A stretch of 64,000 nucleotides of DNA from Candidatus Kaiserbacteria bacterium (GCA_016182485.1 JACPGH010000005.1:64305-128304); one strand, 5' to 3'; shown: positions 1,715 through 60,358, counted from the first letter of the stretch. The notes: generated from the letters alone by a model not told the origin. A program made the numbers and translations.

Positions 1715-1727
1715 GAAATTAGTTGGT

Positions 1728-1822
1728 TAGGCGCTAGGCTCTAGGCGCTAGCAAAATACATTATTAAAAGTGCACCTTCTCATGCTAACACGCAGCTAGA
1801 GCCTAAAGCCTAGTGCCTGGGC
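1728..1822. repeat. two CTAG-rich heptamer tandem clusters (CTAGGCK)n
   Basis: ggcgctaggctctaggcgctagc at 1728-1752 and gctagagcctaaagcctagtgcctgg at 1794-1822. The same family recurs at seven more sites. Confidence 0.6.
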
Positions 1823-24359: not shown

Positions 24360-24386
24360 GTTGGCTAGAGCCTAGCACCTAACTGG

Positions 24387-24662
24387 CTAGCGGATCGCCT
24401 CCTTGAGCGCCTTCGCCGGGCGGAACTTCGCCGTGCGGGTCGCCGCGATGCGGATCGTCTCGCCGGTGCGCGGGTTACGACCCTCCCGCGCCGGGCGCGC
24501 CTTGGTCGCGAAGATGCCGAGTCCGGCGACCGATACCTCGTCGCCAGATTTCAGACTGGAAACGATACAATCTATCACCGTCTCAACGGCGCGCTCCGCG
24601 TCGGCCTTCGTCGAGCCGAGCGTGCTGTGCACCTTGTCAATTATGTCTGCTTTGTTGGCCAT
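24387..24662 (-). CDS. hup: HU-family DNA-binding protein
   Basis: MANKADIIDKV...GLGIFATKARPAREGRNPRTGE.I.I typical of HU/IHF. Confidence 0.85.
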   Translation of the reverse strand: MANKADIIDKVHSTLGSTKADAERAVETVIDCIVSSLKSGDEVSVAGLGIFATKARPAREGRNPRTGETIRIAATRTAKFRPAKALKEAIR

Positions 24663-28309: not shown

Positions 28310-28319
28310 ATGAAAATAA

Positions 28320-29262: not shown

Positions 29263-29301
29263 GAGCTAGATTCTAGCAGTCACCTAGCGCCTAGAGCCTA
29301 G

Positions 29302-36725: not shown

Positions 36726-38107
36726 ATCTGGAGCCTGGAAACTTGATACTGGAGGCTGGCGGAAAGAGGCCCAGTAACCAGCAACTAGCAACTAGCAACC
36801 AGCGTGGCTACGTTCTCTTGCTTACACTGGTTTTTATGGGCATCTTCGCAACAGTCGCAACTGCGCTCGTAGGTTCCGTAATTTCTTACGGGAAAGTAGA
36901 GCGATCTAGAGTAGCGAGCGCTCAAGCGCTCGCCATTGCGGAAGGCGCGCTCGATCTCGCCGTCGAGCGATTAAATGACGATCCATTCTACGGCGGCACT
37001 GCTGAAACGTCCCTAGGAGAAGGGACATTCACGATCGAAGTCGCGACCATCGACCAAGAAACAAGGCGGGTCACCGCCACCGGTTATGTGCCGAGCAGCG
37101 GGGAAAGGAGGGCAATGAAGACAGTCCGAGCGAATGTCGGGATAGTGGATTCCCGCATCTCATTCCATTACGGAATACAGTCGGGGAACGGCGGTTTCGA
37201 GATGCGCAACAATTCGATAGTAAGCGGAAATATTTTCTCGAACGGAAGAGTGGCAGGCGACGGGACCAATAATATGGTGTACGGGGATATCATTTCCGCG
37301 GGCGCGAACGGCCTCGTCTACGGCGTGCATGCGACCGGAACCGTGCGCGCGCACTCGATCGGAAACGCATCGGCCAACACGATTATTGACACGGATGCTC
37401 ATTACTATGAGACAAAGGTGAATACGACTGTGGCCGGGACTTCTTTCCCGGGCAGCGCGGATCAGACGAGCGCCCCGCTGCCTATATCCGACGCTCAGAT
37501 CGCTTCTTGGGAAGCGCAAGCGGCCGCTGGAGGAGTCGCGAGCTGTTCGGGAGGCCAGTATACGATTTCTTCCGGAGCAATCTCGCTCGGACCCGTTAAA
37601 ATCCCCTGCGATCTCGTGATAAGCAATAGCGCCGTCGTTACCGTACGAGGCCATATCTGGGTAGCGGGGAATATCTCGGTGCAGAACTCCGCCAAGGTGA
37701 AAATGGACCCGTCGCTGGGATCGAAAAATGTCGCCATCATCGCCGATAATCCGGCGAACCGCTTGACGAGCAGTATAATCACCGTCCGGAATACAGCCAC
37801 GTTCGAGAATTCCGGAACTCCCGGCTCGTTCGTCTTCCTAATTTCGCAGAACAACAGCGCGGAGCTGGGCGGCGCCGTCGTGGCCTTCGAACTGGGCAAC
37901 AGCGCTTCCGCGCTCGTCGCATACGCCGCGCACGGGCTCATTCCGCTTGCCAATTCTGTGTCGCTCAGAGAGGTGACCGGCTACAAAATTACGCTCGCAA
38001 ATTCCGCGAGCATCGTGTACGACACCGGCCTCCCTAGCTCTGTTTTTGAATCGGGTCCGGGCGGGAGCTGGAGCTTCGTCCCAGGCACGTACGCGATAAC
38101 GCGCTAG
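36722..38107 (+). CDS. large pilus-associated protein (PilX-like N-terminus; Gly/Asn-rich repetitive body)
   Basis: ATGA overlap. Leader MNLEPGNLILEAGG...QRG|YVLLLTLVF is paralogous to the previous gene's leader. Confidence 0.45.
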   Translation: MNLEPGNLILEAGGKRPSNQQLATSNQRGYVLLLTLVFMGIFATVATALVGSVISYGKVERSRVASAQALAIAEGALDLAVERLNDDPFYGGTAETSLGEGTFTIEVATIDQETRRVTATGYVPSSGERRAMKTVRANVGIVDSRISFHYGIQSGNGGFEMRNNSIVSGNIFSNGRVAGDGTNNMVYGDIISAGANGLVYGVHATGTVRAHSIGNASANTIIDTDAHYYETKVNTTVAGTSFPGSADQTSAPLPISDAQIASWEAQAAAGGVASCSGGQYTISSGAISLGPVKIPCDLVISNSAVVTVRGHIWVAGNISVQNSAKVKMDPSLGSKNVAIIADNPANRLTSSIITVRNTATFENSGTPGSFVFLISQNNSAELGGAVVAFELGNSASALVAYAAHGLIPLANSVSLREVTGYKITLANSASIVYDTGLPSSVFESGPGGSWSFVPGTYAITR

Positions 38108-38193
38108 CTATTAGGCTCTAGGCTCTAGGCGCTAGCAGCCCCAGATCAGGAATAAGCTAGAGCCTAGCGCCTGTCCGAGTGCCTAGAGCCTGC
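38101..38193. repeat. two CTAG-heptamer clusters
   Basis: gcgctagctattaggctctaggctctaggcgctagc ... gctagagcctagcgcctgtccgagtgcctagagcc. Confidence 0.6.
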
Positions 38194-38205
38194 TACTATT
38201 AAGGA

Positions 38206-38982
38206 ATGCTTATCGTCGCGAATTGGAAGGCATACGTGGAGGACCTCGCCCGCGCGAAAAAGCTTTTGGCCGTCTCTAAGCGACTTGCGCGACAAAGCCA
38301 GGCGACTATCGTACTCGCTCCCCCCGCGCCGCTCTTAGGCGCGCTCGCGCTGAACAACCGGTCTAACGTGGCCTTCGCCGCGCAAGACATATCGGTGACG
38401 ACTGGCGGCGCGCAGACCGGCGAGATAACCGCCGGCGCATTCGAGGCGGTCGGCGCCGCCTATGCGCTTATCGGACACTCCGAACGCCGCGCGAGAGGAG
38501 ATACGGCCGTTTCAGTTGCGGAGAAAATTTCCCACGCGCTCGCTCAAGGTTTGAGGCCAATTCTATGCGTCGGCGAACCTGAACGGGATGCCGAGGGACG
38601 GTATCTCTCGTTCATACGCGAAGAACTGACATCCGCCCTGTCTGCTGTCGCGCCCAGGGAGCGCGCGGAAATAATTGTCGCCTACGAACCGCTCTGGGCG
38701 ATCGGTAAGAGTGCCGACGCAGCCGCGAGCGCGAATGACCTCGGCGAAATGACCCTCTATATCCGCAAAGTGCTCGCCGAACTGCTCCCGGGCCGTCCTT
38801 CGCCGGAGGCTTCGGCGAGGCGAGGCAAAAGCTCGCGAGAATCGCTCGTTCTCTATGGCGGCTCCGTAGAGCCGGACAATATTCGCGACCTCGCGGCAAG
38901 CTCCGGCCTGGATGGGTTTCTTATCGGCCACGCCTCGGTGGATCCCCGACTATTCGCGGCTTCGGTAAAGCAGCTCGCGTAG
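38206..38982 (+). CDS. tpiA: triosephosphate isomerase
   Basis: VANWK, IGHSERR and AYEPLWAIG motifs. Confidence 0.85.
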   Translation: MLIVANWKAYVEDLARAKKLLAVSKRLARQSQATIVLAPPAPLLGALALNNRSNVAFAAQDISVTTGGAQTGEITAGAFEAVGAAYALIGHSERRARGDTAVSVAEKISHALAQGLRPILCVGEPERDAEGRYLSFIREELTSALSAVAPRERAEIIVAYEPLWAIGKSADAAASANDLGEMTLYIRKVLAELLPGRPSPEASARRGKSSRESLVLYGGSVEPDNIRDLAASSGLDGFLIGHASVDPRLFAASVKQLA

Positions 38983-47266: not shown

Positions 47267-47521
47267 ATGACGACAACGATCCAAAAGTGGGGGAACAGCT
47301 ATGCCGTGCGCCTTCCCAAGACCGCCGTGCGTAAGCTTAATCTGCGGGCTGGTCAGTCCGTGGAGATTCGGGAAGCCGCTCACGGCAACGCGCCTTTCCT
47401 CTCCATTATTCCCACGCGACACCGTGTGCCGCCCCTTTCGGAAATGCTCGCGCGCATCACGAAGAAAAACCGCCATTCCGTCACCGATTGGGGCGAAGCG
47501 GTCGGGCAAGAGATATGGTAG
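47267..47521 (+). CDS. mazE: MazE/AbrB-fold antitoxin
   Basis: IQKWGNSYAVRLPK ... TDWGEAVGQEIW matches MazE end to end. Confidence 0.7.
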   Translation: MTTTIQKWGNSYAVRLPKTAVRKLNLRAGQSVEIREAAHGNAPFLSIIPTRHRVPPLSEMLARITKKNRHSVTDWGEAVGQEIW

Positions 47522-47859
47522 CGAAGCGCCCGCGCGTTCCTTGTCGCGGCGATATCATGTGGCTTGACTTCAACCCGGTTCGCGGGCATGAACAGGACGG
47601 AAGACGCCCGGCGCTTGTAATTTCTCCGGAGAAATACAATGTGGCGGCGGGACTCGCGCTGGTATGCCCCGTAACCTCTAAAACAAAAGGGTATCCTTTC
47701 GAGGTTGAATTCAAAATAAAGGCCGCGCAGGGAATAATACTCGCCGATCAGATCCGCGCGATAGACTGGACAAAGCGCCGCGCGGAGAAGCTCGGGACCG
47801 TATCAGAAGCGGTCATAACAACGGTGCAGGACTGCGTGAGAAAGCTCATCTTGGATTAG
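47516..47859 (+). CDS. mazF: MazF/PemK-family endoribonuclease toxin
   Basis: RGDI.WLDF.P..G.EQ.G.RPALVIS...VCPVTSK; start overlaps the mazE stop. Confidence 0.75.
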
Positions 47860-47977: not shown

Positions 47978-48421
47978 ATGAAGAAGTTCGCCGCGCAGTT
48001 CACGCTCGCGTTCGCGTTCGTCATTGGGATCGCCGCGCTCGTCGCGCCGGCGCCCGCCGCGGCCGCCCAGGAGTGCGAGATCCGGTTCTGCTGGACCCAG
48101 GGCTACGTCGCCCCGGCCGGGCTCCTGGCGGCCAACCGGGTCCCCGTGCGATTCAACCTTCTCGATGACTTCGGCAACGTCATCGGCCAGATCCTGGTGT
48201 CGTCGGTCGCGATGAGCGACTTCCTGTCGCTCTACTCGACCTTCGGAATGCCGCCGATCGAGGTGGTGACGAAGCCCGTCTTCTACAGGGACGGGACGAT
48301 CGGCGCCGGGTGGGTTCTCAAGCCGGTGTGCCTGTATCCGGCAGAGGGGCCGACCGGCAGCCTCTGTGGCTGGCACGAGCCGGAGCCGACCGAGCCGCCC
48401 GTCCCGGACGGCAAGGGGTAG
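47978..48421 (+). CDS. secreted Cys-containing hypothetical protein (signal peptide); markedly higher GC than neighbours
   Basis: MKKFAAQFTLAFAFVIGIAALVAPAPAAAA signal peptide. About 70% GC with GC-rich third positions. The overlapping minus-strand ORF is judged spurious. Confidence 0.4.
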   Translation: MKKFAAQFTLAFAFVIGIAALVAPAPAAAAQECEIRFCWTQGYVAPAGLLAANRVPVRFNLLDDFGNVIGQILVSSVAMSDFLSLYSTFGMPPIEVVTKPVFYRDGTIGAGWVLKPVCLYPAEGPTGSLCGWHEPEPTEPPVPDGKG

Positions 48422-48572
48422 CACAGTTCCCGAAGGGGTCGTCTCGCCATCGGCGGACGACCCCTTCACTCTTTAGTGCCGAAAAGTGTTTCGAGATTAA
48501 AGAGTGATTAATTAAGTGAGTTTGAACAGCACGATGAAATTCGCGCGCTTCCTACTGGTATACTTATGCGCA

Positions 48573-49013
48573 ATGGAATACCAGGTGCCGCAGTTCATCG
48601 AAGTAGAAGACAAGATCGTCGGGCCGCTGACGCTCAAGCAGTTCATCTACCTCGCAGGCGGCGGGGGACTGTGCATCGTTTTCTTCGTGTACTTGCATCT
48701 CATACTCGCCCTTCTCTTCTCGGCGCCGATCGTCGCGCTCGCCGTCGCCCTCGCGTTCTACAAGAAAAACGGCAAGCCTTTCGTGGAGATAGTCGAGGCC
48801 GGCTTCAATTATTACGTTACCGGCAAGTTGTTTCTCTGGAAGCACGAGGAGCCGACCGCCAAGGAGAATAGCGCTGCCGCCGCGGCGGCGGCGGCGCAAG
48901 AGTCGGCAAGCCGCGCGAAGAATCCCAGACTTACGCGCGGCAAGCTCACCGAACTCGCTTGGGCGCTTGACGTCAAGGCGCTCGGCGGCACCCCGCAGAG
49001 CCGCGAACAATGA
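48573..49013 (+). CDS. PrgI-like small membrane protein (conjugation/T4SS-associated family)
   Basis: MEYQVPQFIEVEDKIVGPLTLKQFIYL N-terminus and two TM helices are characteristic of PrgI-family proteins. Confidence 0.45.
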   Translation: MEYQVPQFIEVEDKIVGPLTLKQFIYLAGGGGLCIVFFVYLHLILALLFSAPIVALAVALAFYKKNGKPFVEIVEAGFNYYVTGKLFLWKHEEPTAKENSAAAAAAAAQESASRAKNPRLTRGKLTELAWALDVKALGGTPQSREQ

Positions 49014-49642
49014 TCATGCCTACGAGAGCCCCCGGAGCCACCCAGCAGTTCGTCCCGGTCAAAGAGATACGGAACGGCGTTGTCGTTCTTAAAGACGGAG
49101 GCTATCGCGGCATCCTTATCTGTTCCTCCATAAACTTCGGCCTGAAGTCGGCCGAGGAGCAGCACGCGATCACGGTAGGCTTCCAGAACTTCCTCAACAC
49201 GCTCGATTTCTCGATCCAGATAGTCGTGAATTCGCGCAAGATGGACCTCCGCCCATACCTCTCGCTTCTTGAGCAGAAAGGCGCCGATCAAAAAAGCGAA
49301 CTGATGCGGATACAGCTGCGCGAATACATGGCGTTCATCCGCTCCTTCACCGAACAGGCGAATATCATGACGAAATCTTTTTATATCGTCGTGCCCTATG
49401 CGCCGCATGTCTCCGCTACGAGCGCCCTCAATATTCTAGGACGTAAAGGTCCCAAAAACACGGCCGAGACGACCTTCGAAGAGGATCGCGCACAGCTGGA
49501 ACAGAGACTCGCGCTCGTCGCGGGCGGCCTCGGCGGCACCGGCGTGCGCGCCGTCCCGCTCGGGACGGAAGAGGTCATCGAACTTCTATATCGATCCTTC
49601 AATCCGGGGGAGTTGGAAAATCCAATAAGGCTAGATAGTTAG
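49010..49642 (+). CDS. VirB4/TraC-like N-terminal domain protein (probably the 5' part of the split VirB4 gene)
   Basis: VPVKEIRNGVVVLKDGGYRGILICSSINFGLKSAEEQ resembles the VirB4 N-terminal region. Overlaps the PrgI-like stop. Confidence 0.45.
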   Translation: MIMPTRAPGATQQFVPVKEIRNGVVVLKDGGYRGILICSSINFGLKSAEEQHAITVGFQNFLNTLDFSIQIVVNSRKMDLRPYLSLLEQKGADQKSELMRIQLREYMAFIRSFTEQANIMTKSFYIVVPYAPHVSATSALNILGRKGPKNTAETTFEEDRAQLEQRLALVAGGLGGTGVRAVPLGTEEVIELLYRSFNPGELENPIRLDS

Positions 49643-49668
49643 GCTCTAGGCGCTAGGCTCTAGCTCAA
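49641..49668. repeat. CTAG-heptamer tandem (left flank of cassette)
   Basis: ttaggctctaggcgctaggctctagctc. Confidence 0.6.
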
Positions 49669-49678
49669 TACAAAAACC

Positions 49679-50137
49679 ATGAAGATTTCGCACGACGAAC
49701 TTGCTAAGTTTCTGGATGCAGCAAACAAGTCGACATACGCAAATAAAGACGCGCCGAAATCAGCGTCTTTGAGACCGTCCTCGGAGGACTACCATTTCGA
49801 GCTGGGGGACCTTGCCTATCATGACACCTACTTTGGTGCGCGCGATTTTATCGGGGAAGAAGTTGTGTACAAAATCTCGAAACCAGTGTGGGGTATGAAT
49901 TATTACGGCTATTTATTGAATCCCGACATATCTGCTGATGAAGTCTACACGGTTCTTCGTTCGGCATTATACAGCGATACATTACCAGTACGAGGACCTC
50001 GAGAGCACATTCGAGGAACTAGTAAGTATGCGAATCAAGTTGATGGAACGCTAAATAGATTTTCGGGCGAAGAAAAGATCTATTTTGATACGGAATTGGT
50101 GTACTGCTGTTGGTATCACGGCGGAAGTATTGAATGA
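49679..50137 (+). CDS. hypothetical protein (DUF5680-like?)
   Basis: ORF only; family assignment tentative. Confidence 0.3.
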   Translation: MKISHDELAKFLDAANKSTYANKDAPKSASLRPSSEDYHFELGDLAYHDTYFGARDFIGEEVVYKISKPVWGMNYYGYLLNPDISADEVYTVLRSALYSDTLPVRGPREHIRGTSKYANQVDGTLNRFSGEEKIYFDTELVYCCWYHGGSIE

Positions 50138-50138
50138 T

Positions 50139-50510
50139 ATGCAAACATTTCGGGATCTCGTCGTTTGGCAGAAGGCGGTCGAACTTGCTAAACAAATATA
50201 TATCCTGACACATCAGTTTCCCACGGAAGAGCGATTCGGTCTGGCTTCGCAAATGCAACGAGCCGCCGTCTCGATTCCCTCGAACATCGCTGAAGGAAAG
50301 CTGCGCGGGTCGTCGAAAGAATTTATACACTTCCTGCGTGTTGCCTTCGGGTCTGGTGGCGAACTTGAGACACAGATAGAAATCGCAAAGCGCTTACCGA
50401 GAACGGCAGCATTGAATTTCGCGTCGGTAGAAGCACTTCTCGATGAAATAATGCGGATGCTGAATGCTATGATTTCTGGTAGCGGGCATAAGCTAGCGCC
50501 TAGAGCCTAG
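50139..50510 (+). CDS. four-helix-bundle protein (family typically found in 23S rRNA intervening sequences)
   Basis: FRDLVVWQKA.EL...IY.LT..FP..E.FGL.SQ..RAAVSIPSNIAEG signature. Confidence 0.6.
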   Translation: MQTFRDLVVWQKAVELAKQIYILTHQFPTEERFGLASQMQRAAVSIPSNIAEGKLRGSSKEFIHFLRVAFGSGGELETQIEIAKRLPRTAALNFASVEALLDEIMRMLNAMISGSGHKLAPRA

Positions 50511-50518
50511 CGCCTGTA
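50491..50518. repeat. CTAG-heptamer tandem (right flank of cassette, inverted relative to the left flank)
   Basis: aagctagcgcctagagcctagcgcctg. Confidence 0.6.
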
Positions 50519-50521
50519 TTT

Positions 50522-52336
50522 ATGGCCTTATTAGACTTTCTCAACCGCAAGAGACAAGAACCGGAGATCGTACCGGTCCTTCCGAAAGACATTTACCGGC
50601 AGGGCTCGCTCAATCTAGTGGATACCATCGCGCCTACGGCGCTCAAGATCTCTCCAAGAGAGCTCGAGCTGGGCGAGAAATTCGTACGCGCGTTCTACAC
50701 CATCTCGTATCCGCGCTTCCTGACCGACAGCTGGTTCTCGCCGGTCATCAACCTCGACAAAGTGCTCGACGTTTCCATTTTTATTCATCCGATCGAGACG
50801 GGACAGGCGCTGCGCGCATTCCAGAAAAAGGTCGCTGAAGTCCAGAGCCAGATCAACGAGCGAGAATCCAGAGGCCTCGTGCGCGACCCTCTGCTCGATA
50901 CTGCGTACCAAGATCTGGAAACGCTACGCGACAGTCTCCAGCAGGCGCAGGAGAAGCTGTTTGAAGTCGGGCTCTACCTTGCGCTCTATGGAGATTCCAA
51001 AGAAGAAATAGACAAGACCGAGGGCGACATACGCGGCATACTCGACGCTAAGCTGGTCTACACGAAGCCCGCGCTCTTCCAGCAAGAGCAAGGCTTTCGT
51101 TCCTGCCTGCCTCTCGGCTCCGACGAGCTCATGGTGCATTCGAAATTGAACTCTTCGCCCATCTCCTCTTTCTTCCCGTTCGTCTCGTTCGACCTCACTA
51201 GCGACCGCGGCATCCTCTACGGCCTGAACCGCCACAATTCCTCGCTTATCCTCTTCGACCGTTTCTCCCTCGAGAACTACAACTCCGTCGTGTTCGCGAA
51301 ATCCGGCTCCGGCAAGAGCTACGCGACCAAGCTCGAGATCCTGCGCTCCTTGATGTTCGGGACCAACGTCATCGTTATCGATCCCGAACGAGAATACGAT
51401 CAACTCGTGGAAGCCACCGGCGGACGCTCCTTCCACATCTCGCTCTCCTCGGAGCACCACATCAACCCGTTCGACTTGCCGCCGATCCGGGAGGATGAGA
51501 ATCCGCGCGACATCCTGCGCTCGAACATCATCACGCTCGTCGGCCTTTTCCGCATCATGCTCGGCGGCCTCTCGCCAGAGGAGGACGCCATCATTGATCG
51601 GGCCATCAGCGAGACATACGCGCTCAAGGATATTACCGGAGACGCCGACTTCTCCGGCGCCGAACCGCCGCTGCTCTCCGATTTCGAGCAGGTGCTCTCG
51701 GGCATGGAAGGCAGCGAGTCGCTCGTCGAGCGGCTCTCGAAGTACACCCGCGGCACGTGGGCGGGGTTCTTGAACCAGCCGACCAACATCGATATCAATC
51801 AGCAGTTCGTCGTCTTCTCCGTACGCGACATGGAGGACGAGCTCAAGCCCGTGGCGATGTACATCATCACGCACTATATCTGGAACGCGGTCCGCCACGA
51901 GCTCAAGAAACGCCTGCTCATTATCGACGAGGCGTGGTGGATGATGAAGAGCGAAGACACCGCTTCCTTTCTCTACTCGGTCGCCAAGCGCGGGCGCAAG
52001 TATTATCTGGGCGTCGCCACCATCACGCAGGACGTCGAGGACTTCTTGAAAAGTCCCTACGGCCGCCCGATCCTCACTAACTCCTCCCTCCAGCTTTTGC
52101 TCAAGCAGTCGACAACGACTATCGACGTGCTGCAGCAGACTTTCAATCTTACCGACGAAGAGAAGTATCTCTTGCTCGAGGCCGGGGTAGGCGAGGGGCT
52201 TTTCTTCGCCGGCTTAAAGCACGTCGCAATCAAGGTCGTCGCGAGCTATACCGAGGATCAGATAATCACCTCCGATCCCTCGCAGCTTCTCGCGATAAAG
52301 GCGGAGAAGGACCGCCATGCCGCAGAGAAACAATAA
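50522..52336 (+). CDS. VirB4/TraC-like conjugal-transfer ATPase (C-terminal two-thirds)
   Basis: Walker A (KSGSGKSYATK), Walker B (LLIIDEAWWMM), and an upstream YPRFL VirB4 segment. Confidence 0.75.
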   Translation: MALLDFLNRKRQEPEIVPVLPKDIYRQGSLNLVDTIAPTALKISPRELELGEKFVRAFYTISYPRFLTDSWFSPVINLDKVLDVSIFIHPIETGQALRAFQKKVAEVQSQINERESRGLVRDPLLDTAYQDLETLRDSLQQAQEKLFEVGLYLALYGDSKEEIDKTEGDIRGILDAKLVYTKPALFQQEQGFRSCLPLGSDELMVHSKLNSSPISSFFPFVSFDLTSDRGILYGLNRHNSSLILFDRFSLENYNSVVFAKSGSGKSYATKLEILRSLMFGTNVIVIDPEREYDQLVEATGGRSFHISLSSEHHINPFDLPPIREDENPRDILRSNIITLVGLFRIMLGGLSPEEDAIIDRAISETYALKDITGDADFSGAEPPLLSDFEQVLSGMEGSESLVERLSKYTRGTWAGFLNQPTNIDINQQFVVFSVRDMEDELKPVAMYIITHYIWNAVRHELKKRLLIIDEAWWMMKSEDTASFLYSVAKRGRKYYLGVATITQDVEDFLKSPYGRPILTNSSLQLLLKQSTTTIDVLQQTFNLTDEEKYLLLEAGVGEGLFFAGLKHVAIKVVASYTEDQIITSDPSQLLAIKAEKDRHAAEKQ

Positions 52337-52946
52337 ACTACCGCCGCGGCCGCCGACCGTAACCTGGAAAAATGCGGTTCCCTTAGTGGCAGTGGCCGCC
52401 GTGTTCGACGCGGCGCGCATGTTCTTCGAGATGTTCTGGCTCTTCGGCCCAGTACTGCTCGGAGCTTACTGCACCGGCAAAGTGAGCGAATACGTAGGAA
52501 TGCTTGGGGGCGCGACCGTGGCGGCCTGCGGCGCCGGCGCCACCATCGTGGGCTACGTTTTTAGCCCTCATCTCGTTGTCTTTGGCTCCATAATGGCTAT
52601 CGCTGTCGGAATTTTTGGCTGGCTCACGGTGATGCTTCTGCTCGCGATGTTTAACGCCCGGATTTTCAAGACAGTCGCGAACGGCTGGCTCTGGTCCCTG
52701 CTCGGCCTCGGCGTCAGCGTCATACCTATTGTAGGCGCAATTCCCTCAATTACACTCTCTTTGCTCAAGCTATATCATGCGCAAATAAAAAAGGATCGCG
52801 CAGGACTCAAGGAGTGGCAAAAAACTACGCAAGAGATCCTCAAAAAAGTGGAGCGCGCCCGGCAAGAAGCGGAACTTGCGCGCTTATATCAAGAACAGGC
52901 CGCCGCCGAGGAAGAAATCCCCGAAGAGAGGCCGAAAGCCGCCTAA
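52317..52946 (+). CDS. hypothetical polytopic membrane protein (T4SS-module-associated)
   Basis: Four or more TM helices, charged coiled C-terminus. Confidence 0.4.
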   Translation: MPQRNNKLPPRPPTVTWKNAVPLVAVAAVFDAARMFFEMFWLFGPVLLGAYCTGKVSEYVGMLGGATVAACGAGATIVGYVFSPHLVVFGSIMAIAVGIFGWLTVMLLLAMFNARIFKTVANGWLWSLLGLGVSVIPIVGAIPSITLSLLKLYHAQIKKDRAGLKEWQKTTQEILKKVERARQEAELARLYQEQAAAEEEIPEERPKAA

Positions 52947-52969
52947 CCGCGCCCGGAGAGATATATACT

Positions 52970-53971
52970 ATGCACATGTACTCTCGCGCCCTGCGAGCCA
53001 CTGCGCTCCTTTCTCTCGCCCTCTTTCTCCCGGCACTGGCAGCCGCGCAGTTCGTCGGCGGGCCGAGCACGGCCCCGTTCTCTATCTCTCTCAGCCCGCG
53101 ATATCCCGCTCCCCAATCCCAGGCCGTTCTCTCGCTTCTCTCAAGCTCGATTAATCTCGCGAATGCGAAACTGTCGGTAACTGTCGCGGGCAAGACAATA
53201 TACGAAGGCGCCGCGCAGCCGGTCGCTATCCCGATCGGCAACACGGGAGAAATAACTTCGATCACTGCCGTCATTTCTGCCGGCGGCCGGAATTATAGCC
53301 AATCCATCCAAGTCCAACCACAGGACGTGGCGCTCATAGTTGAACCTGTCTCCTCGGCGCCGCTTCTCTATCCCGGGAAGCCTATGGTCCCCCTTGAAGG
53401 GAGCGCGCGGATGGTGGCCATCGCGAACCTGCGCGATGGCAGCGGGCGAATGCTCGCGCCGAATACGCTCTCGTACTCCTGGACCGTGGACGGAACGAAT
53501 CTCGCAAGCGCCTCGGGCATAGGGAAGAGCTCGCTCATGGTGGTTTCTCCTTTGCAGTACCGGCAGAGAACGGTATCCGTAAGAGTCGAGAGCCCGGATG
53601 GGAAGCTCTCGGGCGGAGCCGAGCATTCTCTTTCTCCAGCGCAGCCGGTCGCGCGCATTTATCGGAACGACCCTCTCCTCGGCATACTTTTCAACCGCGC
53701 GCTTTCCGGTAATTTCGCGATAACTACTTCAGAGGAGAGCCTTTATGCAGCGGTGTTTTCCCTCCCGGTCACAAGCGGCGCGCCGCTCCTGCAATGGTTT
53801 TTGAACGGCAAGGCGGCCCAGTCCGGGAGCAGCATAACCTTGCGGCCGGGCGGCAACGGGGAAGGGACGGCGTCTCTCTCCCTGACAGCCTCCGCGGCCG
53901 ACACGAAAGCGACAGCGACCCTGCCCCTCTCCTTCGGCACGCCGGCCGGAGGGAATCTTCTCGGCCTATGA
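52970..53971 (+). CDS. hypothetical secreted protein
   Basis: Signal peptide MHMYSRALRATALLSLALFLPALAAA. Confidence 0.4.
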   Translation: MHMYSRALRATALLSLALFLPALAAAQFVGGPSTAPFSISLSPRYPAPQSQAVLSLLSSSINLANAKLSVTVAGKTIYEGAAQPVAIPIGNTGEITSITAVISAGGRNYSQSIQVQPQDVALIVEPVSSAPLLYPGKPMVPLEGSARMVAIANLRDGSGRMLAPNTLSYSWTVDGTNLASASGIGKSSLMVVSPLQYRQRTVSVRVESPDGKLSGGAEHSLSPAQPVARIYRNDPLLGILFNRALSGNFAITTSEESLYAAVFSLPVTSGAPLLQWFLNGKAAQSGSSITLRPGGNGEGTASLSLTASAADTKATATLPLSFGTPAGGNLLGL

Positions 53972-54702
53972 AGAAAATCATTATTGTTGCCGCCCTATTC
54001 CTCCTAAGTCTGGCCCCGCATGCCCTCGCGGCAGAAAGCGGCTTTGTGGCGCTCGCCCCAATTACGGGTCTCACGGATCAAAGCACGACCGCGCTGGTGA
54101 ATTCAGGCGATCTTTCCGCTTTCTTCAACAATCTATACAAATACCTCATCGGGCTCGCGGCCATTCTTGCGATCATTCAAATCATGTATGGCGGCATTAG
54201 GATCGCCACGAACCAAGATAACGTGAGTCTGGTAACGGATATGAGAGGACGCATCGTGCAGGCGCTCTTCGGTCTCGTGCTCGTCCTCTCGCCGGCGATA
54301 GTCTTCTCGATCATCAATCCGCGCATTTTGGATCTCTCTATCGGCCTCTCGCCGCTGGACTTGCCGGCGCCAGTGTCGAGGTCCTCGGACGGGACATCGA
54401 CAACAACTATTTCCGCAGAGGATAGAACCGTTCGGGAAGCAATGGGGGGCAGAGTGGTTTGGAGTTTTACAATCAATAATGCCGCGCAAACGGGACGCCA
54501 GGCAACTGGAGCGATCCTCGACGACAAACAACAGCAGTGTACACGGGATACCGGAGGTACCGGTATTATCTTGCCCGACCCTCAAACTGGCGGAGGTGCT
54601 TTCGCTTATGTCTGTCAGACATGTCCTCCCAATACAACCATGGTCTTGCTCTCGCGCGGGCGCCCAGGTCCTGGGCCACGCGGGGCATGCCAACCGAATT
54701 AG
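53968..54702 (+). CDS. secreted/membrane protein with signal peptide and two TM helices (possible TrbC/VirB2-like pilin) and a Cys-rich tail
   Basis: MKKIIIVAALFLLSLAPHALA plus two hydrophobic helices. Topology resembles T4SS pilins. Confidence 0.3.
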   Translation: MKKIIIVAALFLLSLAPHALAAESGFVALAPITGLTDQSTTALVNSGDLSAFFNNLYKYLIGLAAILAIIQIMYGGIRIATNQDNVSLVTDMRGRIVQALFGLVLVLSPAIVFSIINPRILDLSIGLSPLDLPAPVSRSSDGTSTTTISAEDRTVREAMGGRVVWSFTINNAAQTGRQATGAILDDKQQQCTRDTGGTGIILPDPQTGGGAFAYVCQTCPPNTTMVLLSRGRPGPGPRGACQPN

Positions 54703-54707
54703 CTGCT

Positions 54708-56012
54708 ATGCGCCGCACACTTATCATTGCCGGAATACTTCTGCTCATCATCGGAGCCGGTCTTGCGTACTTCTATTTCTTCGAGAAGCCTCGAGGTATC
54801 GCTGTCGTGCCGCAAGGAGCGGTGAATTTCCCGACGGCCGGGCAGCGGGAACCTACAGCTGGCGGAGGCGCCTCGACCGCCTCAACCCAGACCGCCGCGC
54901 CGGAAGCCGTATCCTCGCGCCTCACGAGGATTAGCGGCGGGCCGGTAGTGCCCGGCGAAGCGGTCGTCGACATTCCGGCCAAAAACGCGAGTCCCGTTGG
55001 AGATCAAATTTCCAACGGGGCAAGCAGCTCCCCCTCCTCGACCTCGCTCGGGGTAAACGACGTCGCAGTTTCGTACATCGAACGGCAGAGCGGGAACGTA
55101 TACGTCTACGTAAAAAGCGCCGGCACGGTGGCGCGCAAAACGAACAAAACTCTCCCAGGCATTCAGTCAGCGCTCTGGGTTCCCGATGGTTCGACCGCCT
55201 TCGTGCGCTACCTCTCGGGCGCCGACTTCTCGAGCGTCAGCACGTATGCATTGCCCGTAGATAACGGGCTATCCGCCGACAGACAGGGATTCTTCCTCCC
55301 GCAAAACCTCGCGGACATCGCCATAGCCTCTTCGAGCCCCGTTGGAAATCCGATTTCCAACGGGGCGAGCATACTCACTCTCGCCTCCGGCGTGAACGGC
55401 TCCGTCGCTTCGCTCGGCAAAATTGACGGTTCGCGCACTTCGGACGCGTTCACTACGCCGCTCTCGGCTCTGCGTATCGCCTTCGCGGGCAAGAACCAAT
55501 ACCTCGCTTTCACCAAGCCGACCTCGTCCTTGCCCGGGTATGCTTTCTTCGTAGATAAAAATGGCCGTTTCTCCCGCGTCGCCGGGCCAGCCAATGGACT
55601 CGTAGCCCTTCCGAGCCCGTCGGGGAAGCACGTGCTCATAAGCTATATCCAAGACGGCTCGATGCAGCTCGCCCTTATTACGGCGGCCACCGGGGAAACG
55701 ACGACCCTGCCTGTGGCGACCATCGCCGATAAATGCGTGTGGACGGCCGATGACTCCGCTGTCTACTGCGGAATCCCCGTATCTCCGTCTGCTATTTATC
55801 AATACCCGGACGACTGGTACCAGGGCGCCGTCGCGTTCTCGGATAGGATCTGGAAGATCGATGTCACCGACCGTTTCGCGCAACTGGTGTTCGACTTTTC
55901 TCTAGAGACCGAGAGCGCGCTAGATGCGCAGGCAATGGCTATCAACCCCTTAGGGACTATGCTCGTATTCGTTAACAAGAACGATGGCTCGCTCTGGGCT
56001 TATTCGCTCTAG
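54708..56012 (+). CDS. membrane-anchored repeat-containing hypothetical protein
   Basis: N-terminal TM helix. Internal repeat (PVGDQISNGASSS / PVGNPISNGASIL). Confidence 0.4.
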   Translation: MRRTLIIAGILLLIIGAGLAYFYFFEKPRGIAVVPQGAVNFPTAGQREPTAGGGASTASTQTAAPEAVSSRLTRISGGPVVPGEAVVDIPAKNASPVGDQISNGASSSPSSTSLGVNDVAVSYIERQSGNVYVYVKSAGTVARKTNKTLPGIQSALWVPDGSTAFVRYLSGADFSSVSTYALPVDNGLSADRQGFFLPQNLADIAIASSSPVGNPISNGASILTLASGVNGSVASLGKIDGSRTSDAFTTPLSALRIAFAGKNQYLAFTKPTSSLPGYAFFVDKNGRFSRVAGPANGLVALPSPSGKHVLISYIQDGSMQLALITAATGETTTLPVATIADKCVWTADDSAVYCGIPVSPSAIYQYPDDWYQGAVAFSDRIWKIDVTDRFAQLVFDFSLETESALDAQAMAINPLGTMLVFVNKNDGSLWAYSL

Positions 56013-56764
56013 ACTTTAGCGGCTAAAGCACCCGCTTCTTTATCGAGCGTGCGGCGTACGTGCCATTCCTGGACCACGCCGGCGAGATTGGTCGTGATGA
56101 AATACAACGCCACCGCGCCGGAAGTCGTGTATGAGATGGTGCCGATGAGGAACGGGAAGACATACTTGAGCTGCATCCCCATCATCTTCTGGAAATCCCC
56201 TTGAAAGCCGCCCGTCCCGGGCGTCGGCTTCATCGTGCCGGAAAGGGCTGCTTGAGCCTGGAAAAATTGCGTTACCGCCGCGAGGACCGCCAGAACGAGG
56301 CTTTTGCCCGCGACTGAAATGAGGCCGAGAAATTGCAGAGAGACTAATTGCGGCACGGGGGTGAAGGCGTAGAGGCGCGCGGCATTGATCGCCGGAAAGG
56401 GCTCGTAGAAGAAGACCCAGTAGAGAGCGAGCAGGATGGGGATCTGTATGAAAAGCGTCAAAATGCTCGCGAACGGGTTTACGCGCGCTTCGCGATAAAG
56501 CGCGAGCGTCTGCACCGCTTCTTTTTCCTTATCTCCCTTATGTTTCTCCTTGAGCTCTTTGAGGCGCGGCTCGAGCTCTTTCATCGCGCGCTGGGTGCGG
56601 GCGGCGGAGAGCGAGAAGGGAAGTAAGACGAGCCGGATAACGATAGTGACAAGGATAATGGCCACGCCCACGTCGCCGTTCGGAATTACCGCTACGAGCG
56701 CGACCAGGGCGTTGTAAATCGGATTATAGAAAACCGCGTGGAAGAACGTTGAGACCCAGGCCAT
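56009..56764 (-). CDS. yidC: membrane protein insertase YidC (short form)
   Basis: Five-TM core with the conserved R (VIRLVLLPFS). Confidence 0.8.
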   Translation of the reverse strand: MAWVSTFFHAVFYNPIYNALVALVAVIPNGDVGVAIILVTIVIRLVLLPFSLSAARTQRAMKELEPRLKELKEKHKGDKEKEAVQTLALYREARVNPFASILTLFIQIPILLALYWVFFYEPFPAINAARLYAFTPVPQLVSLQFLGLISVAGKSLVLAVLAAVTQFFQAQAALSGTMKPTPGTGGFQGDFQKMMGMQLKYVFPFLIGTISYTTSGAVALYFITTNLAGVVQEWHVRRTLDKEAGALAAKV

Positions 56765-56779: not shown

Positions 56780-57094
56780 TTAACGGTCGGTTTTTGAAAG
56801 CAGTCCTATCAATTCTGCCCGGATCTCGCTGGCCGTCATATCTAGAACCGAGGCTTTTGGGTAGATCAAAAGGGAAGGGGGCAGGGCAGAGAGCGCGCGG
56901 AGAGCTCCCAGGACTCGACGTTTGAGGCGGTGGCGAGTGACTGAGAGCCGGGCGGTCTTTTTAGGGACGATGACGGCATAGCCTGTGGCTCCTCTGGGCA
57001 CTATGACTTGGAAATGCGCGGAGGAGAGCCTCAAGGCGCCTTTAATAGCCTTGGGGAAGGCGGTTCTCGAGAGCCGCTGGCTCCTGGGGAACAC
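56780..57094 (-). CDS. rnpA: ribonuclease P protein component
   Basis: Basic about 100 aa protein; RNR-like motif (RHRLKRRV). Confidence 0.75.
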   Translation of the reverse strand: MFPRSQRLSRTAFPKAIKGALRLSSAHFQVIVPRGATGYAVIVPKKTARLSVTRHRLKRRVLGALRALSALPPSLLIYPKASVLDMTASEIRAELIGLLSKTDR

Positions 57095-57096: not shown

Positions 57097-57231
57097 TTAG
57101 ACCGCGAGGCGCGTGCGCCCCGCGCGGCGGCGACGGCGGACGATCTTCCTGCCAGAGCTGGTCTCTGCCCGCGCGCGAAAGCCGTGGGTTCGGGCGCGTT
57201 TACGCTTCTTGGGTTGGTAGGTGAAAGACAT
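57097..57231 (-). CDS. rpmH: 50S ribosomal protein L34
   Basis: Hand translation gives [21 protein letters not shown]...GRKIVRRRR, the L34 signature. Not in the ORF track (<60 aa). Confidence 0.8.
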
Positions 57232-57326
57232 TGTTGAGTCAAGACGCTGCTATGCACACGATAGTAACAGGTTTTAAACAAATTGCCACAGTGTTGCTTT
57301 TCCCGAGCCAGCGTATAATCCAGGCA

Positions 57327-58682
57327 ATGGATCGAAGCAATCCGAGAGAACTCTGGGAATACACGCTGACCCAAGTAGAGCTCTCGATATCTCCCGCTAA
57401 CTTCAACACCTGGTTCCGCAACAGTTTCATACACAAAATAGGAGAGGACGGCGTTATTTATATAGGAATCCCTAGTCAATTCTTTAAGGATTGGTATTTG
57501 AAAAAGTTCCATACTCTTCTCTTAAAGATTTTCCGAGATATCTCGTTTGAGTTCCGGAATATCGAGTACGTCATCGTGAAGGACGAGCGGCGCAAGGCCG
57601 CGCCCCGGGAGACAAAAAGCGTCCCGGGGGCCATGGAACTCCCGCTCAACGAGTTCTACATCAACAAAAGCGACAATTTGAACCCGCGCTACACCTTCGA
57701 TACGTTCGTCATCGGGTCGTTCAACAGCCTTGCTTACGCGGCCGCTCAAGCGGCGCTTGAGCATCCCGGCATAATCTACAACCCGCTCTTTGTCTACGGG
57801 GATACCGGCCGCGGCAAAACGCATCTTATCCAGGCAATCGGCAATCATTTTAAAAAGCAGTACCCGGGCCGCAAGGTCTATTATCTGACATCCGAAAAAT
57901 TCACGGTCGATTACACCGACTCCGTGCAGGCGGGGACTGCGAATCGTTTTAAAGACAAATATCGCCAATACGATCTTCTTATCATGGACGATGTGCAGTT
58001 CCTGTCGAAAAAAGAGAAGACCGAGGAGGAGCTTTTCCATCTATTCAACGCGCTTCACGACGCGAATAAACAGATTATTTTTTCCTCAGACAGGTCGCCG
58101 GCCGCTATCCCAGATATCGCCGAGCGCCTGAAGGGCCGTCTAGCGAGCGGAATGACTGTAGATATAGGCGAACCGGATCCTGAGTCGCGCATGGCCATTA
58201 TCCGCAAGAAATCAGCCTCGCACGGCATCCTCCTCTCGGAGGAGGTTGTAGAGTACGTCGCGACCTCGGTATCCGGCTCGATTCGCGAGCTTGAAGGGAT
58301 GGTAAATAGCATAATTTGCCATGCGCAGGCGCGGGGCTCTACGCCAAACATCTCGGAAGTGCGGCAGTCAATCCGTTCTTTCATGCGGCCGCAGAAGAAC
58401 ATATCAGTGAAGAATGTCGTCGACCGGGTCGCTAGTTTCTATGGTATCGATGAAGAAAGCATCTATGAGAAGACCCGCCGGAGAGAAGTGGTGCGCCCGC
58501 GACAGGTCATCATGTACCTGTTGCGGGAAGATTTCAGTATTTCGTACCCGACTATCGGCACGAAGATAGGCGGGCGCGATCATACGACGGTTATCCACTC
58601 CTGTGAAAAAATAAAAAAAGAAATCGTGGTGGATAACGAGCTCGCAAAAGAGATTCAGAACATACGCACCCTTCTCGTATGA
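57327..58682 (+). CDS. dnaA: chromosomal replication initiator DnaA
   Basis: AAA+ Walker A (GDTGRGKTHL), Walker B (LLIMDDVQFL), C-terminal DnaA box-binding domain. Start at MDRSNP. Confidence 0.9.
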   Translation: MDRSNPRELWEYTLTQVELSISPANFNTWFRNSFIHKIGEDGVIYIGIPSQFFKDWYLKKFHTLLLKIFRDISFEFRNIEYVIVKDERRKAAPRETKSVPGAMELPLNEFYINKSDNLNPRYTFDTFVIGSFNSLAYAAAQAALEHPGIIYNPLFVYGDTGRGKTHLIQAIGNHFKKQYPGRKVYYLTSEKFTVDYTDSVQAGTANRFKDKYRQYDLLIMDDVQFLSKKEKTEEELFHLFNALHDANKQIIFSSDRSPAAIPDIAERLKGRLASGMTVDIGEPDPESRMAIIRKKSASHGILLSEEVVEYVATSVSGSIRELEGMVNSIICHAQARGSTPNISEVRQSIRSFMRPQKNISVKNVVDRVASFYGIDEESIYEKTRRREVVRPRQVIMYLLREDFSISYPTIGTKIGGRDHTTVIHSCEKIKKEIVVDNELAKEIQNIRTLLV

Positions 58683-60329: not shown

Positions 60330-60358
60330 GAAGTAAAGAGGTTTGACCTCTTTACTTC
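60330..60358. terminator. perfect 13 bp-stem hairpin C (GAAGTAAAGAGGTTTGACCTCTTTACTTC) between convergent maf-like and PBP genes
   Basis: Same hairpin at 29003-29029. Confidence 0.5.

What the first reader, a model, noticed from the sequence alone, without database searches (positions are those of the whole stretch)
48573..56012. T4SS-like module with a VirB4-like ATPase gene apparently split by a repeat-flanked four-helix-bundle cassette
The module comprises a PrgI-like protein (48573-49013), a VirB4 N-terminal-domain ORF (49010-49642), a cassette (49679-50510), a VirB4-like ATPase (50522-52336), a polytopic membrane protein, two secreted proteins, a pilin-like two-TM protein and a large membrane-anchored repeat protein.

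This resembles the minimal conjugation-like systems seen in small-genome bacteria.

The 210-aa N-domain ORF plus the 604-aa ATPase ORF sum to ~814 aa, the length of a typical single-chain VirB4. The break coincides exactly with a cassette bounded by inverted CTAG-heptamer repeats.

The cassette encodes a four-helix-bundle protein of the type normally found inside 23S rRNA intervening sequences, and a second hypothetical protein.

This looks like a selfish-cassette insertion that split VirB4. The ATPase may function as two polypeptides, or it may be inactivated.
Basis: partly seen in the sequence, partly recalled or inferred. Interest (0 to 1): 0.65.

Follow-up and report, generated by a model that had tools for sequence, protein, structure and literature searches.

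The report
Selfish cassette between two T4SS genes
The VirB4 secretion ATPase of this ultra-small (CPR) bacterium was not split by the inserted cassette, because the two-gene form is the normal ancestral state; the cassette itself looks like an rRNA-type "intervening sequence" element that here sits between genes of a protein-coding operon.

Summary
PrgI, a 210-aa VirB4-N-terminal-like ORF, a DUF5680 gene plus a 23S-rRNA-IVP four-helix-bundle gene bounded by inverted CTAG-heptamer arrays, and a 604-aa VirB4 ATPase all lie at the stated coordinates.

The causal reading is refuted. In 78 of 78 related Kaiserbacteria/Paceibacteria loci the N-domain gene ends in a stop, and the ATPase ATG follows 1-50 nt later with no cassette. 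The stand-alone N-domain protein is the published TrsD component of the Patescibacteria T4SS. The ATPase is intact.

The cassette fills that pre-existing junction. The same junction is occupied in about 11 other scattered lineages, always by left array, variable cargo (DUF5680, SET, an unknown protein, or none), IVP, then right array. Related IVP cassettes sit at other co-directional operon junctions (type IV pilus, ABC transporter, pentose-phosphate genes). Short ORF-less hairpin versions are dispersed, including at least three in this window.

The architecture matches ORF-bearing 23S rRNA IVSs such as Coxiella's: a terminal inverted-repeat stem, tandem heptamers, and an S23p/IVP ORF.

I read it as an IVS-type selfish cassette riding an essential operon. 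Excision of the stem by RNase III is inferred, not shown.

The parts
48573..49013 (+). PrgI/VirB3-like small membrane protein of the T4SS operon
   Evidence: Pfam PrgI E 1.5e-10. Conserved directly upstream of the N-domain gene in 78 of 80 related loci.
49010..49642 (+). Stand-alone TrsD/TraC-like protein, equivalent to the N-terminal part of VirB4. Its TAG stop (49640-49642) is the first unit of the left heptamer array.
   Evidence: NCBIfam hits: CD1110 VirB4 positions 1-162 (E 1.2e-5), VirB4_plasma (E 3.9e-7), TrsD/TraD family (E 1e-3). Precomputed PF26593 TraC-like label on homologues. It is always a separate gene in relatives.
49631..49664 (+). Left arm: CTAGATAGT, then TAGGCTC TAGGCGC TAGGCTC TAGC. 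This is a 7-nt-period array with TAG in all three frames.
   Evidence: All 11 cassette-bearing junctions share CTAGAnnnTTAGG at this point, against 7 of 72 empty junctions that have CTAGA.
49679..50137 (+). Cargo gene, DUF5680 protein (152 aa)
   Evidence: Pfam DUF5680 E 8e-30. At the same site other genomes carry a SET-domain gene, an unknown 130-aa gene, or nothing.
50139..50510 (+). IVP / S23p-type four-helix-bundle gene (123 aa). Its stop lies inside the right arm.
   Evidence: Pfam 23S_rRNA_IVP E 7e-37 and TIGR02436 E 1e-34. dN/dS is at most 0.1 against copies in other genomes.
50492..50516 (+). Right arm: GCTAGCGCCTAGAGCCTAGCGCCTG, the inverted copy of the left arm
   Evidence: It is nearly identical in L006, L025, L075, L081-L085 and L088 even though synonymous sites of the adjacent IVP gene are saturated.
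50522..52336 (+). VirB4-type ATPase (604 aa), intact
   Evidence: NCBIfam CD1110 VirB4 positions 183-733, E 7e-114. PDB 4AG5 E 7e-44. Walker A and B motifs read directly from the translation.
52317..56012 (+). Rest of the T4SS-like operon: a polytopic membrane protein (52317-52946), a signal-peptide protein (about 52964-53971), a VirB2/T4SS-pilin-like protein (about 53968-54702), and a large membrane-anchored protein (ends at 56012)
   Evidence: ORFs. Weak TrbC/T4SS_pilin hits. Gene order is conserved in related loci. The other assignments come from reading the translations only.
38105..38196 (+). Short ORF-less member of the same repeat family. It starts at the TAG stop of ORF 36701-38107 and ends 10 nt before ORF 38206-38982.
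1727..1822 (+). Short ORF-less hairpin member of the same repeat family
   Evidence: RNA fold -46.9 kcal/mol, z -4.0.
24363..24389 (-). Solo heptamer array directly after the TAG stop of minus-strand ORF 24387-24851

Best explanation
The locus is the standard Patescibacteria T4SS operon: prgI/virB3, trsD, virB4, a virB6-like gene, a pilin-like gene and others, next to yidC-rnpA-rpmH-dnaA-dnaN.

The VirB4 N-terminal segment is ancestrally encoded as a separate TrsD-like protein. It is translationally abutted to the ATPase gene, with a gap of 1-6 nt in most relatives.

An 880-bp cassette of the intervening-sequence (IVS) type has been inserted into that tiny intercistronic junction. The cassette has two inverted arrays of about three 7-nt units ([C/T]TAGGCN[C/T]) enclosing a variable cargo gene (here DUF5680) and a conserved IVP/S23p four-helix-bundle gene. 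The IVP stop codon lies inside the right array.

Shown:
- The two-gene state is ancestral.
- The cassette is present or absent among close relatives.
- The cargo is modular.
- The same element type occurs at other operon junctions, and as short ORF-less hairpins.
- IVP is under purifying selection, and the arms are conserved at the nucleotide level.

Inferred:
- The cassette has no promoter or terminator of its own and is read as part of the operon transcript.
- Each arm supplies TAG/TAA in all three frames on both strands. The upstream gene therefore terminates at the element's first unit, and nothing reads through.
- IVP ends 11 nt before the ATPase ATG, so the chain of closely spaced cistrons is preserved.
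- The two arms pair into a long stem that closes off the cassette in the RNA. By analogy with 23S rRNA IVSs, RNase III probably cuts this stem, releasing the cassette RNA and separating the upstream and downstream operon halves without harming them.
- The element persists because it sits in an essential, highly expressed operon where imprecise deletion is lethal.

How it moves at the DNA level is unknown.
For: Ancestral split:
- 78 of 78 related loci have stop plus ATG. Gaps are 1-6 nt in 57 loci and 8-50 nt in a further 14; one locus has a 14-nt overlap and one an unrelated 113-nt spacer.
- The best 150 of 2,516 homologue clusters are 84-443 aa, apart from one 797-aa fusion.
- The two ORFs are collinear on one VirB4 model, positions 1-162 and 183-733.
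- TrsD is published as a stand-alone component (PMC12102498).

Cassette as a discrete, mobile-looking unit:
- It occupies the same junction in L005, L006, L022, L025 and L075 and in L081-L087 and L090.
- These loci are scattered on the TrsD+VirB4 tree. L025's nearest relative, L030 (distance 0.023), has an empty 2-nt junction.
- Cargo varies: DUF5680, SET, an unknown 130-aa protein, or none.

Other sites with the same or analogous arms:
- Between T2SSE and T2SSF in L088. That locus comes from the same MAG as L039, whose T4SS junction is empty.
- Flanking rpiB (L092-94), and between an ABC ATPase and its permease (L095-97).

Short versions:
- About 67 of 96 array pairs have 18-135-nt spacers.
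- Pairs with long spacers and arms of at least 3 units nearly always hold IVP.
- 14 of 17 short elements with two assignable flanking ORFs lie between co-directional genes.

Selection: IVP dN/dS is at most 0.1 with saturated dS, while the arms stay nearly identical.

Stem: 16-17-bp perfect arms. Both the MFE and the centroid fold of 49610-50550 close the cassette with the two arms.

Expression signals: no promoter-like site, and no plus-strand terminator-like site, in 48300-50700.

IVS parallel:
- The Coxiella 23S IVS has a 28-bp terminal inverted-repeat stem cut by RNase III, an S23p ORF, and three tandem heptamers whose copy number varies (PMC4990558).
- An array of the same family ends a 384-nt insertion in a 23S rRNA hairpin loop in L208.
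- A hairpin element sits 12 nt after the 23S 3' end in L178.
Against: - There is no transposase or recombinase in the cassette, and I could not define a target-site duplication.
- The variable positions of the heptamers do not covary between partner arms more than between unrelated arms (0.64 against 0.62 +/- 0.014). Pairing may therefore be a by-product of a repeated motif that has another role.
- The stop-array idea does not hold universally. GC-rich relatives have CTGG or CGAGG units (L156, L131).
- The closest IVP copies all sit at this one junction, their synonymous sites are saturated, and IVP identity correlates with ATPase identity (r 0.68, driven mainly by L090). An old, largely vertically inherited resident with repeated loss is therefore as possible as repeated homing.
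- No RNase III gene or signature occurs in this 64-kb window, and no expression data exist.
- The extra pairing that covers the ATPase AUG in this window is not seen in the other cassette loci.
Confidence: 0.72

Rival explanations
1. One reading: a once-contiguous VirB4 gene was split by the cassette insertion. The ATPase now works as two pieces or is dead.
For: The two ORFs are collinear with single-chain VirB4 models and sum to 814 aa. The cassette lies exactly between them.
Against: All 78 related loci have two separate genes. 72 of them have only 1-50 nt between the genes and one has an unrelated 113-nt spacer, with no cassette. Stand-alone homologues number in the thousands. TrsD is a published stand-alone T4SS component in Patescibacteria and in pGO1-type systems. 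The ATPase motifs are intact.
Confidence: 0.02
2. The cassette is not a selfish element but an old, host-beneficial accessory module of the T4SS operon (for example a regulator or chaperone pair) that has been lost in most lineages. On this view the flanking arrays are just generic intercistronic REP-like hairpins common in these genomes.
For: IVP is under strong purifying selection and the copies are old. The closest IVP homologues all sit at this junction. IVP and ATPase identities correlate. Arrays are common without IVP.
Against: It is absent from about 73 of 78 relatives, which retain a tight junction and no remnant. The cargo is swapped between lineages. Near-identical arms and 75-82%-identical IVP occur in an unrelated pilus operon in a genome whose T4SS junction is empty. 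Other IVPs lie in metabolic and transporter operons. The IVP stop is always embedded in the right array, so gene and arm form one unit.
Confidence: 0.15
3. The pair is a diversity-generating-retroelement accessory (Avd), or an anti-phage defence or toxin-antitoxin cassette.
For: There are weak hits of IVP to bAvd (Pfam E 4e-6, below cutoff) and to the DGR Avd model (25 bits against a cutoff of 80). The small two-gene layout with a variable partner resembles defence islands.
Against: There is no reverse transcriptase or template/variable repeat; the neighbours are T4SS genes. No PADLOC hit was found for IVP, DUF5680, the SET cargo or the 130-aa cargo. IVP occurs alone in L081, L088 and L090.
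Confidence: 0.03

Closest known systems
ORF-bearing 23S rRNA intervening sequences (Coxiella burnetii helix-45 IVS, Leptospira, Brucella; S23p/IVP ORF)
   Same: A PF05635 four-helix-bundle ORF is enclosed by terminal inverted repeats that form a long stem. The termini contain tandem heptameric repeats of variable copy number. ORF-less short versions coexist. Distribution is sporadic. The host is a very highly expressed, essential transcription unit (PMC4990558).
   Different: Here the element lies between two protein-coding cistrons, not in an rRNA helix. It can carry a second, variable cargo gene. Its heptamers carry stop codons in every frame. RNase III excision is untested.
TrsD + VirB4 arrangement of the Patescibacteria T4SS and of pGO1/pSK41-type monoderm conjugation systems
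   Same: A stand-alone protein of about 210 aa, homologous to the VirB4 N-terminal part, sits directly upstream of a VirB4 ATPase of about 600 aa. It is preceded by PrgI/VirB3 and lies near dnaA (PMC12102498).
   Different: Nothing differs except the inserted cassette. The NCBIfam TrsD hit here is weak (E 1e-3, below cutoff).
REP/BIME/REPIN-type intercistronic palindromic elements and phage T7 intercistronic RNase III sites
   Same: These are short inverted-repeat hairpins that fill the gap between co-directional genes of an operon and are dispersed in many copies.
   Different: The arms here are tandem 7-nt (sometimes 8-nt) arrays rather than a single palindrome. Some members carry genes in the loop. 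No RAYT-type transposase was tied to them; the only trace is a weak Y1_Tnp ORF near the L093/L094 copies.
Integron gene cassettes
   Same: There is a promoterless, co-directional and exchangeable cargo gene, bounded by imperfect inverted-repeat structures and expressed from an upstream host promoter.
   Different: There is no integrase or attI. The repeats flank both ends. A constant IVP gene accompanies the cargo. Insertion sites are scattered operon junctions, not an array.

Membership tests
VirB4 ATPase family | P-loop ATPase C-terminal domain homologous to VirB4, with Walker A and B motifs | tested here: met
   CD1110 VirB4 model E 7e-114, above cutoff. PDB 4AG5 E 7e-44. AKSGSGKS and LLIIDEAW are present in the translation.
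VirB4 ATPase family | N-terminal domain on the same polypeptide as the ATPase domain | tested here: not met
   Model positions 1-162 are on a separate 210-aa ORF ending in TAG. The same is true in 78 of 78 relatives.
Patescibacteria / pGO1-type T4SS (TrsD + VirB4) | Stand-alone TrsD homologue directly upstream of virB4, with PrgI/VirB3 alongside | tested here: met
   TrsD/TraD NF041427 E 1e-3 (weak), VirB4 N-terminal hits E 4e-7 and 1e-5. PF26593 TraC-like label on homologues. PrgI. Described in PMC12102498.
Patescibacteria / pGO1-type T4SS (TrsD + VirB4) | Chromosomal location next to the dnaA/dnaN/rnpA/rpmH origin region | tested here: met
   ORFs 56009-56764, 56780-57094, 57097-57231 (L34 sequence [21 protein letters not shown]...), 57231-58682 and 58795-59895. 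These were read from the translations and not scanned against profiles.
23S rRNA intervening sequence (IVS) elements | Encodes an S23p/IVP (PF05635) four-helix-bundle ORF | tested here: met
   Pfam E 7e-37, TIGR02436 E 1e-34.
23S rRNA intervening sequence (IVS) elements | Terminal inverted repeats that form a long stem enclosing the element | tested here: met
   16-17-nt perfect arms; a 50-nt arm pair with 78% complementarity. Both MFE and centroid structures close the cassette with the arms.
23S rRNA intervening sequence (IVS) elements | Inserted in a helix of the 23S rRNA gene | tested here: not met
   It lies between two protein-coding genes, and there is no rRNA in the window. A related array does end a 384-nt insertion in a 23S hairpin loop in L208.
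23S rRNA intervening sequence (IVS) elements | Excised from the transcript by RNase III without religation | not testable with these tools
   [quoted passage not shown] No rnc signature is present in this 64-kb window.
DGR accessory protein Avd | Linked reverse transcriptase and template/variable repeats | tested here: not met
   The neighbours are T4SS genes only. The Avd model scores 25 bits against a cutoff of 80.
DNA transposon / MITE | Terminal inverted repeats plus target-site duplication and a cognate transposase | tested here: inconclusive
   Terminal inverted repeats are present. No transposase is in the cassette. No duplication is discernible when the occupied junction (L025) is compared with the empty one (L030). 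The left end overlaps and recodes the last 4 codons of trsD.

The most novel reading that the evidence does not exclude
IVP genes and their heptamer-array arms may form a previously unrecognised class of 'operon intervening sequences' in CPR bacteria. This would be the same element family as rRNA IVSs, but able to lodge in the intercistronic junctions of essential operons, to carry and exchange cargo genes, and to leave many ORF-less hairpin derivatives. On this reading the pentameric IVP protein binds the 3-5 tandem heptamers to promote the element's processing or spread. That would give PF05635 and bacterial IVSs a function after 30 years.
Probability: 0.25. Interest if true: 0.8.

Novelty: new variant of a known kind. 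Interest (0 to 1): 0.5.

Why it matters
First, it corrects a tempting misreading. The split VirB4 is the normal TrsD + VirB4 design of Patescibacteria secretion systems, not damage done by a mobile element.

Second, it suggests that bacterial intervening sequences are one branch of a broader element family. Until now they were known only as curiosities that fragment 23S rRNA and carry an ORF of unknown function. Here the same kind of element colonises junctions inside essential protein-coding operons of ultra-small bacteria. It carries exchangeable cargo and spawns dispersed hairpin repeats.

That provides many natural occupied-versus-empty site pairs and a defined sequence motif. With these one can test what the IVP protein and the heptamer arms do. 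I found no paper describing this, in two literature searches: 'four helix bundle protein' with 'Candidate Phyla Radiation' returned no paper, and the only paper combining heptameric repeats with IVS is the Coxiella study.

Tried and rejected
- A profile search of the TrsD-like protein against PDB sequences found nothing significant.
- Its AlphaFold model was poor (pLDDT 59), so I ran no fold search. The homology rests on NCBIfam hits and the precomputed Pfam label.
- I compared flanking nucleotide similarity among cassette-bearing loci to detect co-transfer of flanks. The comparison was ungapped and broke down beyond about 30 nt because of indels, so I draw no conclusion from it.
- The covariation test on the variable heptamer positions was inconclusive.
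- The frequency of TAG in partner arms (95% in low-GC loci, 68% in high-GC loci) cannot separate selection for stop codons from pairing with the pattern-selected arm.
- The PADLOC scan of IVP and cargo proteins was negative.
- Rfam found nothing for the 28.3-29.3-kb non-coding stretch, and an IVP-remnant search there was negative.
- No RNase III signature is present in the window.
- The extended stem that covers the ATPase start codon in this window is absent from other cassette loci, so I treat it as a coincidence or a local adaptation.

Full report
OBSERVATION

- ORF 48516/48573-49013 is a PrgI-family protein.
- ORF 49010-49642 (210 aa) has no hit in the local Pfam copy. It does match the N-terminal 162 positions of the NCBIfam CD1110-family VirB4 model (E 1.2e-5), positions 104-233 of the mycoplasma ICE VirB4 model (E 3.9e-7), and weakly the TrsD/TraD family (E 1e-3). 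Its database homologues carry the precomputed label PF26593 'TraC-like'.
- ORF 50522-52336 (604 aa) matches positions 183-733 of the same CD1110 model (E 7e-114, above the curated cutoff) and the solved VirB4 C-terminal domain 4AG5 (E 7e-44). The two ORFs are therefore collinear with one VirB4.
- Between them lie a DUF5680 gene (49679-50137) and a 23S_rRNA_IVP / TIGR02436 four-helix-bundle gene (50139-50510).
- The pair is bounded by TAGGCTCTAGGCGCTAGGCTCTAGC (49640-49664) and its inverted counterpart GCTAGCGCCTAGAGCCTAGCGCCTG (50492-50516). These arms are perfectly complementary over 16-17 nt in two registers.

THE SPLIT IS ANCESTRAL

A scan of one genome per species returned 80 related loci from Kaiserbacteria/Paceibacteria MAGs. 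In all 78 that contain both genes:

- The N-domain gene ends with a stop after a conserved ...LENPIRLDx C-terminus.
- The ATPase begins at its own ATG (MALLDFL...), often in a different frame.
- The gap is 1-6 nt in 57 loci and 8-50 nt in 14 more. One locus has a 14-nt overlap and one an unrelated 113-nt spacer. The remaining five carry the cassette.

The wider family points the same way.

- The N-domain protein has more than 3,000 close homologues, and the top 120 are all about 211 aa.
- In an exhaustive search it has 2,516 clusters at 50% identity. Of the best 150, only one is a 797-aa fusion.
- The literature already describes this. The Patescibacteria T4SS comprises VirB4, a stand-alone TrsD with remote homology to the VirB4 N-terminal portion (2,272 homologues, most next to virB4), PrgI/VirB3, VirB6 and VirB2-like proteins. 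It often lies next to dnaA, dnaN, rnpA and rpmH, and is essential in Ca. Southlakia (PMC12102498).

The window shows exactly that neighbourhood. The ATPase has intact Walker motifs and is 87-92% identical to its orthologues.

WHAT THE CASSETTE IS

The same junction is occupied in L005, L006, L022, L025 and L075. It is also occupied in contigs found independently through IVP homologues: L081, L082, L083/84, L085-87 and L090/91.

Every case has the same plan:

- A left array that begins at the TAG stop of the trsD-like gene. All 11 occupied junctions share CTAGAnnnTTAGG there, whereas only 7 of 72 empty junctions have CTAGA.
- An optional cargo gene.
- An IVP gene tightly abutted to the cargo.
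- A right array that contains the IVP stop.

Cargo differs between lineages: DUF5680 (window, L025, L085-87), a SET-domain protein (L005, L083/84), an unknown 130-aa protein (L006, L082, and L075, where the IVP gene is 5'-truncated), or nothing (L081, L090). L022 has an extra internal array and a small minus-strand ORF.

Occupied loci are scattered over the TrsD+VirB4 tree. L025's nearest relative, L030 (distance 0.023), has an ordinary empty 2-nt junction.

OTHER SITES AND SHORT RELATIVES

An IVP that is 75-82% identical, with virtually the same arms, lies between the T2SSE and T2SSF genes of a type IV pilus operon (L088/89). That contig belongs to the same assembly as L039, whose T4SS junction is empty. 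Further IVPs sit on either side of rpiB in a gap-rpiB-rpe-tkt cluster, and between an ABC ATPase and its MacB/FtsX permease. All are co-directional with the surrounding operon.

Within the window the array motif occurs 17 times against 0.66 expected:

- As short ORF-less hairpins at 1727-1822 and 38105-38196. The second starts at a TAG stop and ends 10 nt before the next gene.
- As a solo array after a TAG stop at 24363-24389.
- As degenerate arms around a 950-nt non-coding stretch at 28332-29301.

A metagenome scan with a 16-nt arm pattern returned 120 loci.

- Most array pairs are short hairpins with spacers of 18-135 nt.
- Pairs with long spacers and arms of at least three units almost always contain IVP.
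- Of 17 short elements with two assignable flanking ORFs, 14 lie between co-directional genes, a few nucleotides from the stop and from the next start.

CONSTRAINTS

IVP copies at this junction differ by dN 0.06-0.24 with saturated dS, giving dN/dS of at most 0.1. The protein is therefore functional and the copies are old.

Over the same divergence the non-coding parts of the arms remain almost identical. This implies constraint at the nucleotide level, or homogenisation between copies.

Different arm families all place a stop triplet at a period that is not a multiple of three, which gives stops in all three frames on both strands:

- TAGGCNN (period 7).
- TAAGGNN in L041 and L075 (period 7).
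- TAGCTTTC in L095 (period 8).

GC-rich relatives lose the TAG (L156, L131). I therefore hold this idea with moderate confidence only.

The variable heptamer positions do not covary between partner arms. Even so, both the MFE and the centroid structure of the 941-nt junction RNA close the cassette with the two arms.

There are no promoter-like sites and no plus-strand terminator-like sites in or around the cassette.

COMPARISON WITH KNOWN ELEMENTS

The Coxiella burnetii 23S rRNA IVS is a 428-nt element with these features (PMC4990558):

- A 28-bp terminal inverted-repeat stem that is cut by RNase III.
- An S23p (= IVP) ORF.
- Three tandem heptameric repeats of variable number upstream of the ORF.

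IVP ORFs also occur in rRNA insertions of CPR bacteria (PMC11270868).

The cassette here shares all of these architectural features but fails the defining location test: it sits in an mRNA operon, not in an rRNA helix.

There are some links to rRNA among the fetched loci:

- An array of the same family terminates a 384-nt insertion in a 23S hairpin loop (L208).
- A hairpin element lies 12 nt after a 23S 3' end (L178).
- An array lies about 300 nt upstream of a 23S gene (L137).

The cassette is not a DGR Avd module, because there is no RT and the score is below cutoff. It is not a known defence system.

MECHANISM AND CONFIDENCE

- About 0.95: TrsD + VirB4 is the ancestral two-gene state, and the cassette occupies a pre-existing junction.
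- About 0.7: the cassette is an IVS-type, horizontally spreading selfish unit that rides the operon transcript. Its stop-bearing arms and tight cistron spacing leave upstream termination and downstream initiation intact.
- About 0.35: the arms form an RNase III-processed stem.
- The DNA-level mobility mechanism is unknown.

The main rival is that the cassette is an old, vertically inherited accessory module that has been lost repeatedly. I give this about 0.15.

VERDICT

The gene-splitting interpretation is refuted. The T4SS part is already known. The residual interest lies in an apparently undescribed context and modularity for IVS/IVP elements.

Noticed in passing
window 28311-29301: This is a stretch of about 990 nt without a convincing ORF, at 57% GC, between a pyrophosphatase-like ORF (27791-28309, minus strand) and a nusA-like ORF (29302-30711, minus strand). 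It is bracketed by degenerate heptamer arrays (28332-28347; 29261-29301). It has no Rfam family at gathering score, only chance-level hits at E about 0.5, and no IVP remnant. It may be a cassette with non-coding cargo or an unknown structured RNA.
   Followed up: partly
window 29003-29030 and 60331-60358: A 28-nt palindrome (ACAAGTAAAGAGGTTTAACCTCTTTACTT-like) occurs at two distant places in the window. This looks like a second small dispersed repeat family.
   Followed up: no
L021, L036, L041, L043, L046, L055, L058, L068, L071, L073, L076, L079, L080 (trsD|virB4 junction): In about 13 relatives the same junction holds a 24-50-nt AT-rich palindromic spacer built on TTTAAATATTTAAATAT, with TAA every 8 nt. 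It resembles the AT-rich inverted arms around one IVP gene in L092. The junction appears to be a hotspot for more than one family of intercistronic element.
   Followed up: partly
L208 1528-1912 (minus strand); L178 3242-3311; L137 5140-5164: L208 has a 384-nt ORF-less insertion in a 23S rRNA hairpin loop (Rfam LSU model about 2620-2626), ending in GCTAGAGCCTAGTGCCTAAAGCCTAGAGCCT. L178 has a heptamer hairpin 12 nt downstream of a 23S 3' end, in the 23S-5S spacer. L137 has a 4-unit array about 300 nt upstream of a 23S gene that also carries a group I intron and a 1.9-kb insertion.
   Followed up: partly
L093 1266-1760; L094 1588-2142: An ORF with a weak Y1_Tnp (IS200/IS605/RAYT-type) Pfam hit lies about 2 kb upstream of the two IVP cassettes that flank rpiB. 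It is a possible lead to an enzyme that mobilises hairpin-type elements.
   Followed up: no
window 47267-47859: Two small overlapping ORFs sit directly upstream of the T4SS module. By eye they look like an AbrB/MazE-type antitoxin (MTTTIQKWGNSYAVRLPK...) and a PemK/MazF-type toxin (...IMWLDFNPVRGHEQDGRRPALVIS...). I did not scan them against profiles.
   Followed up: no
L075 1013-1153: At the same junction the IVP gene is 5'-truncated and fused to the end of the 130-aa cargo gene, while both arms are kept. This is an example of cassette decay in place.
   Followed up: partly
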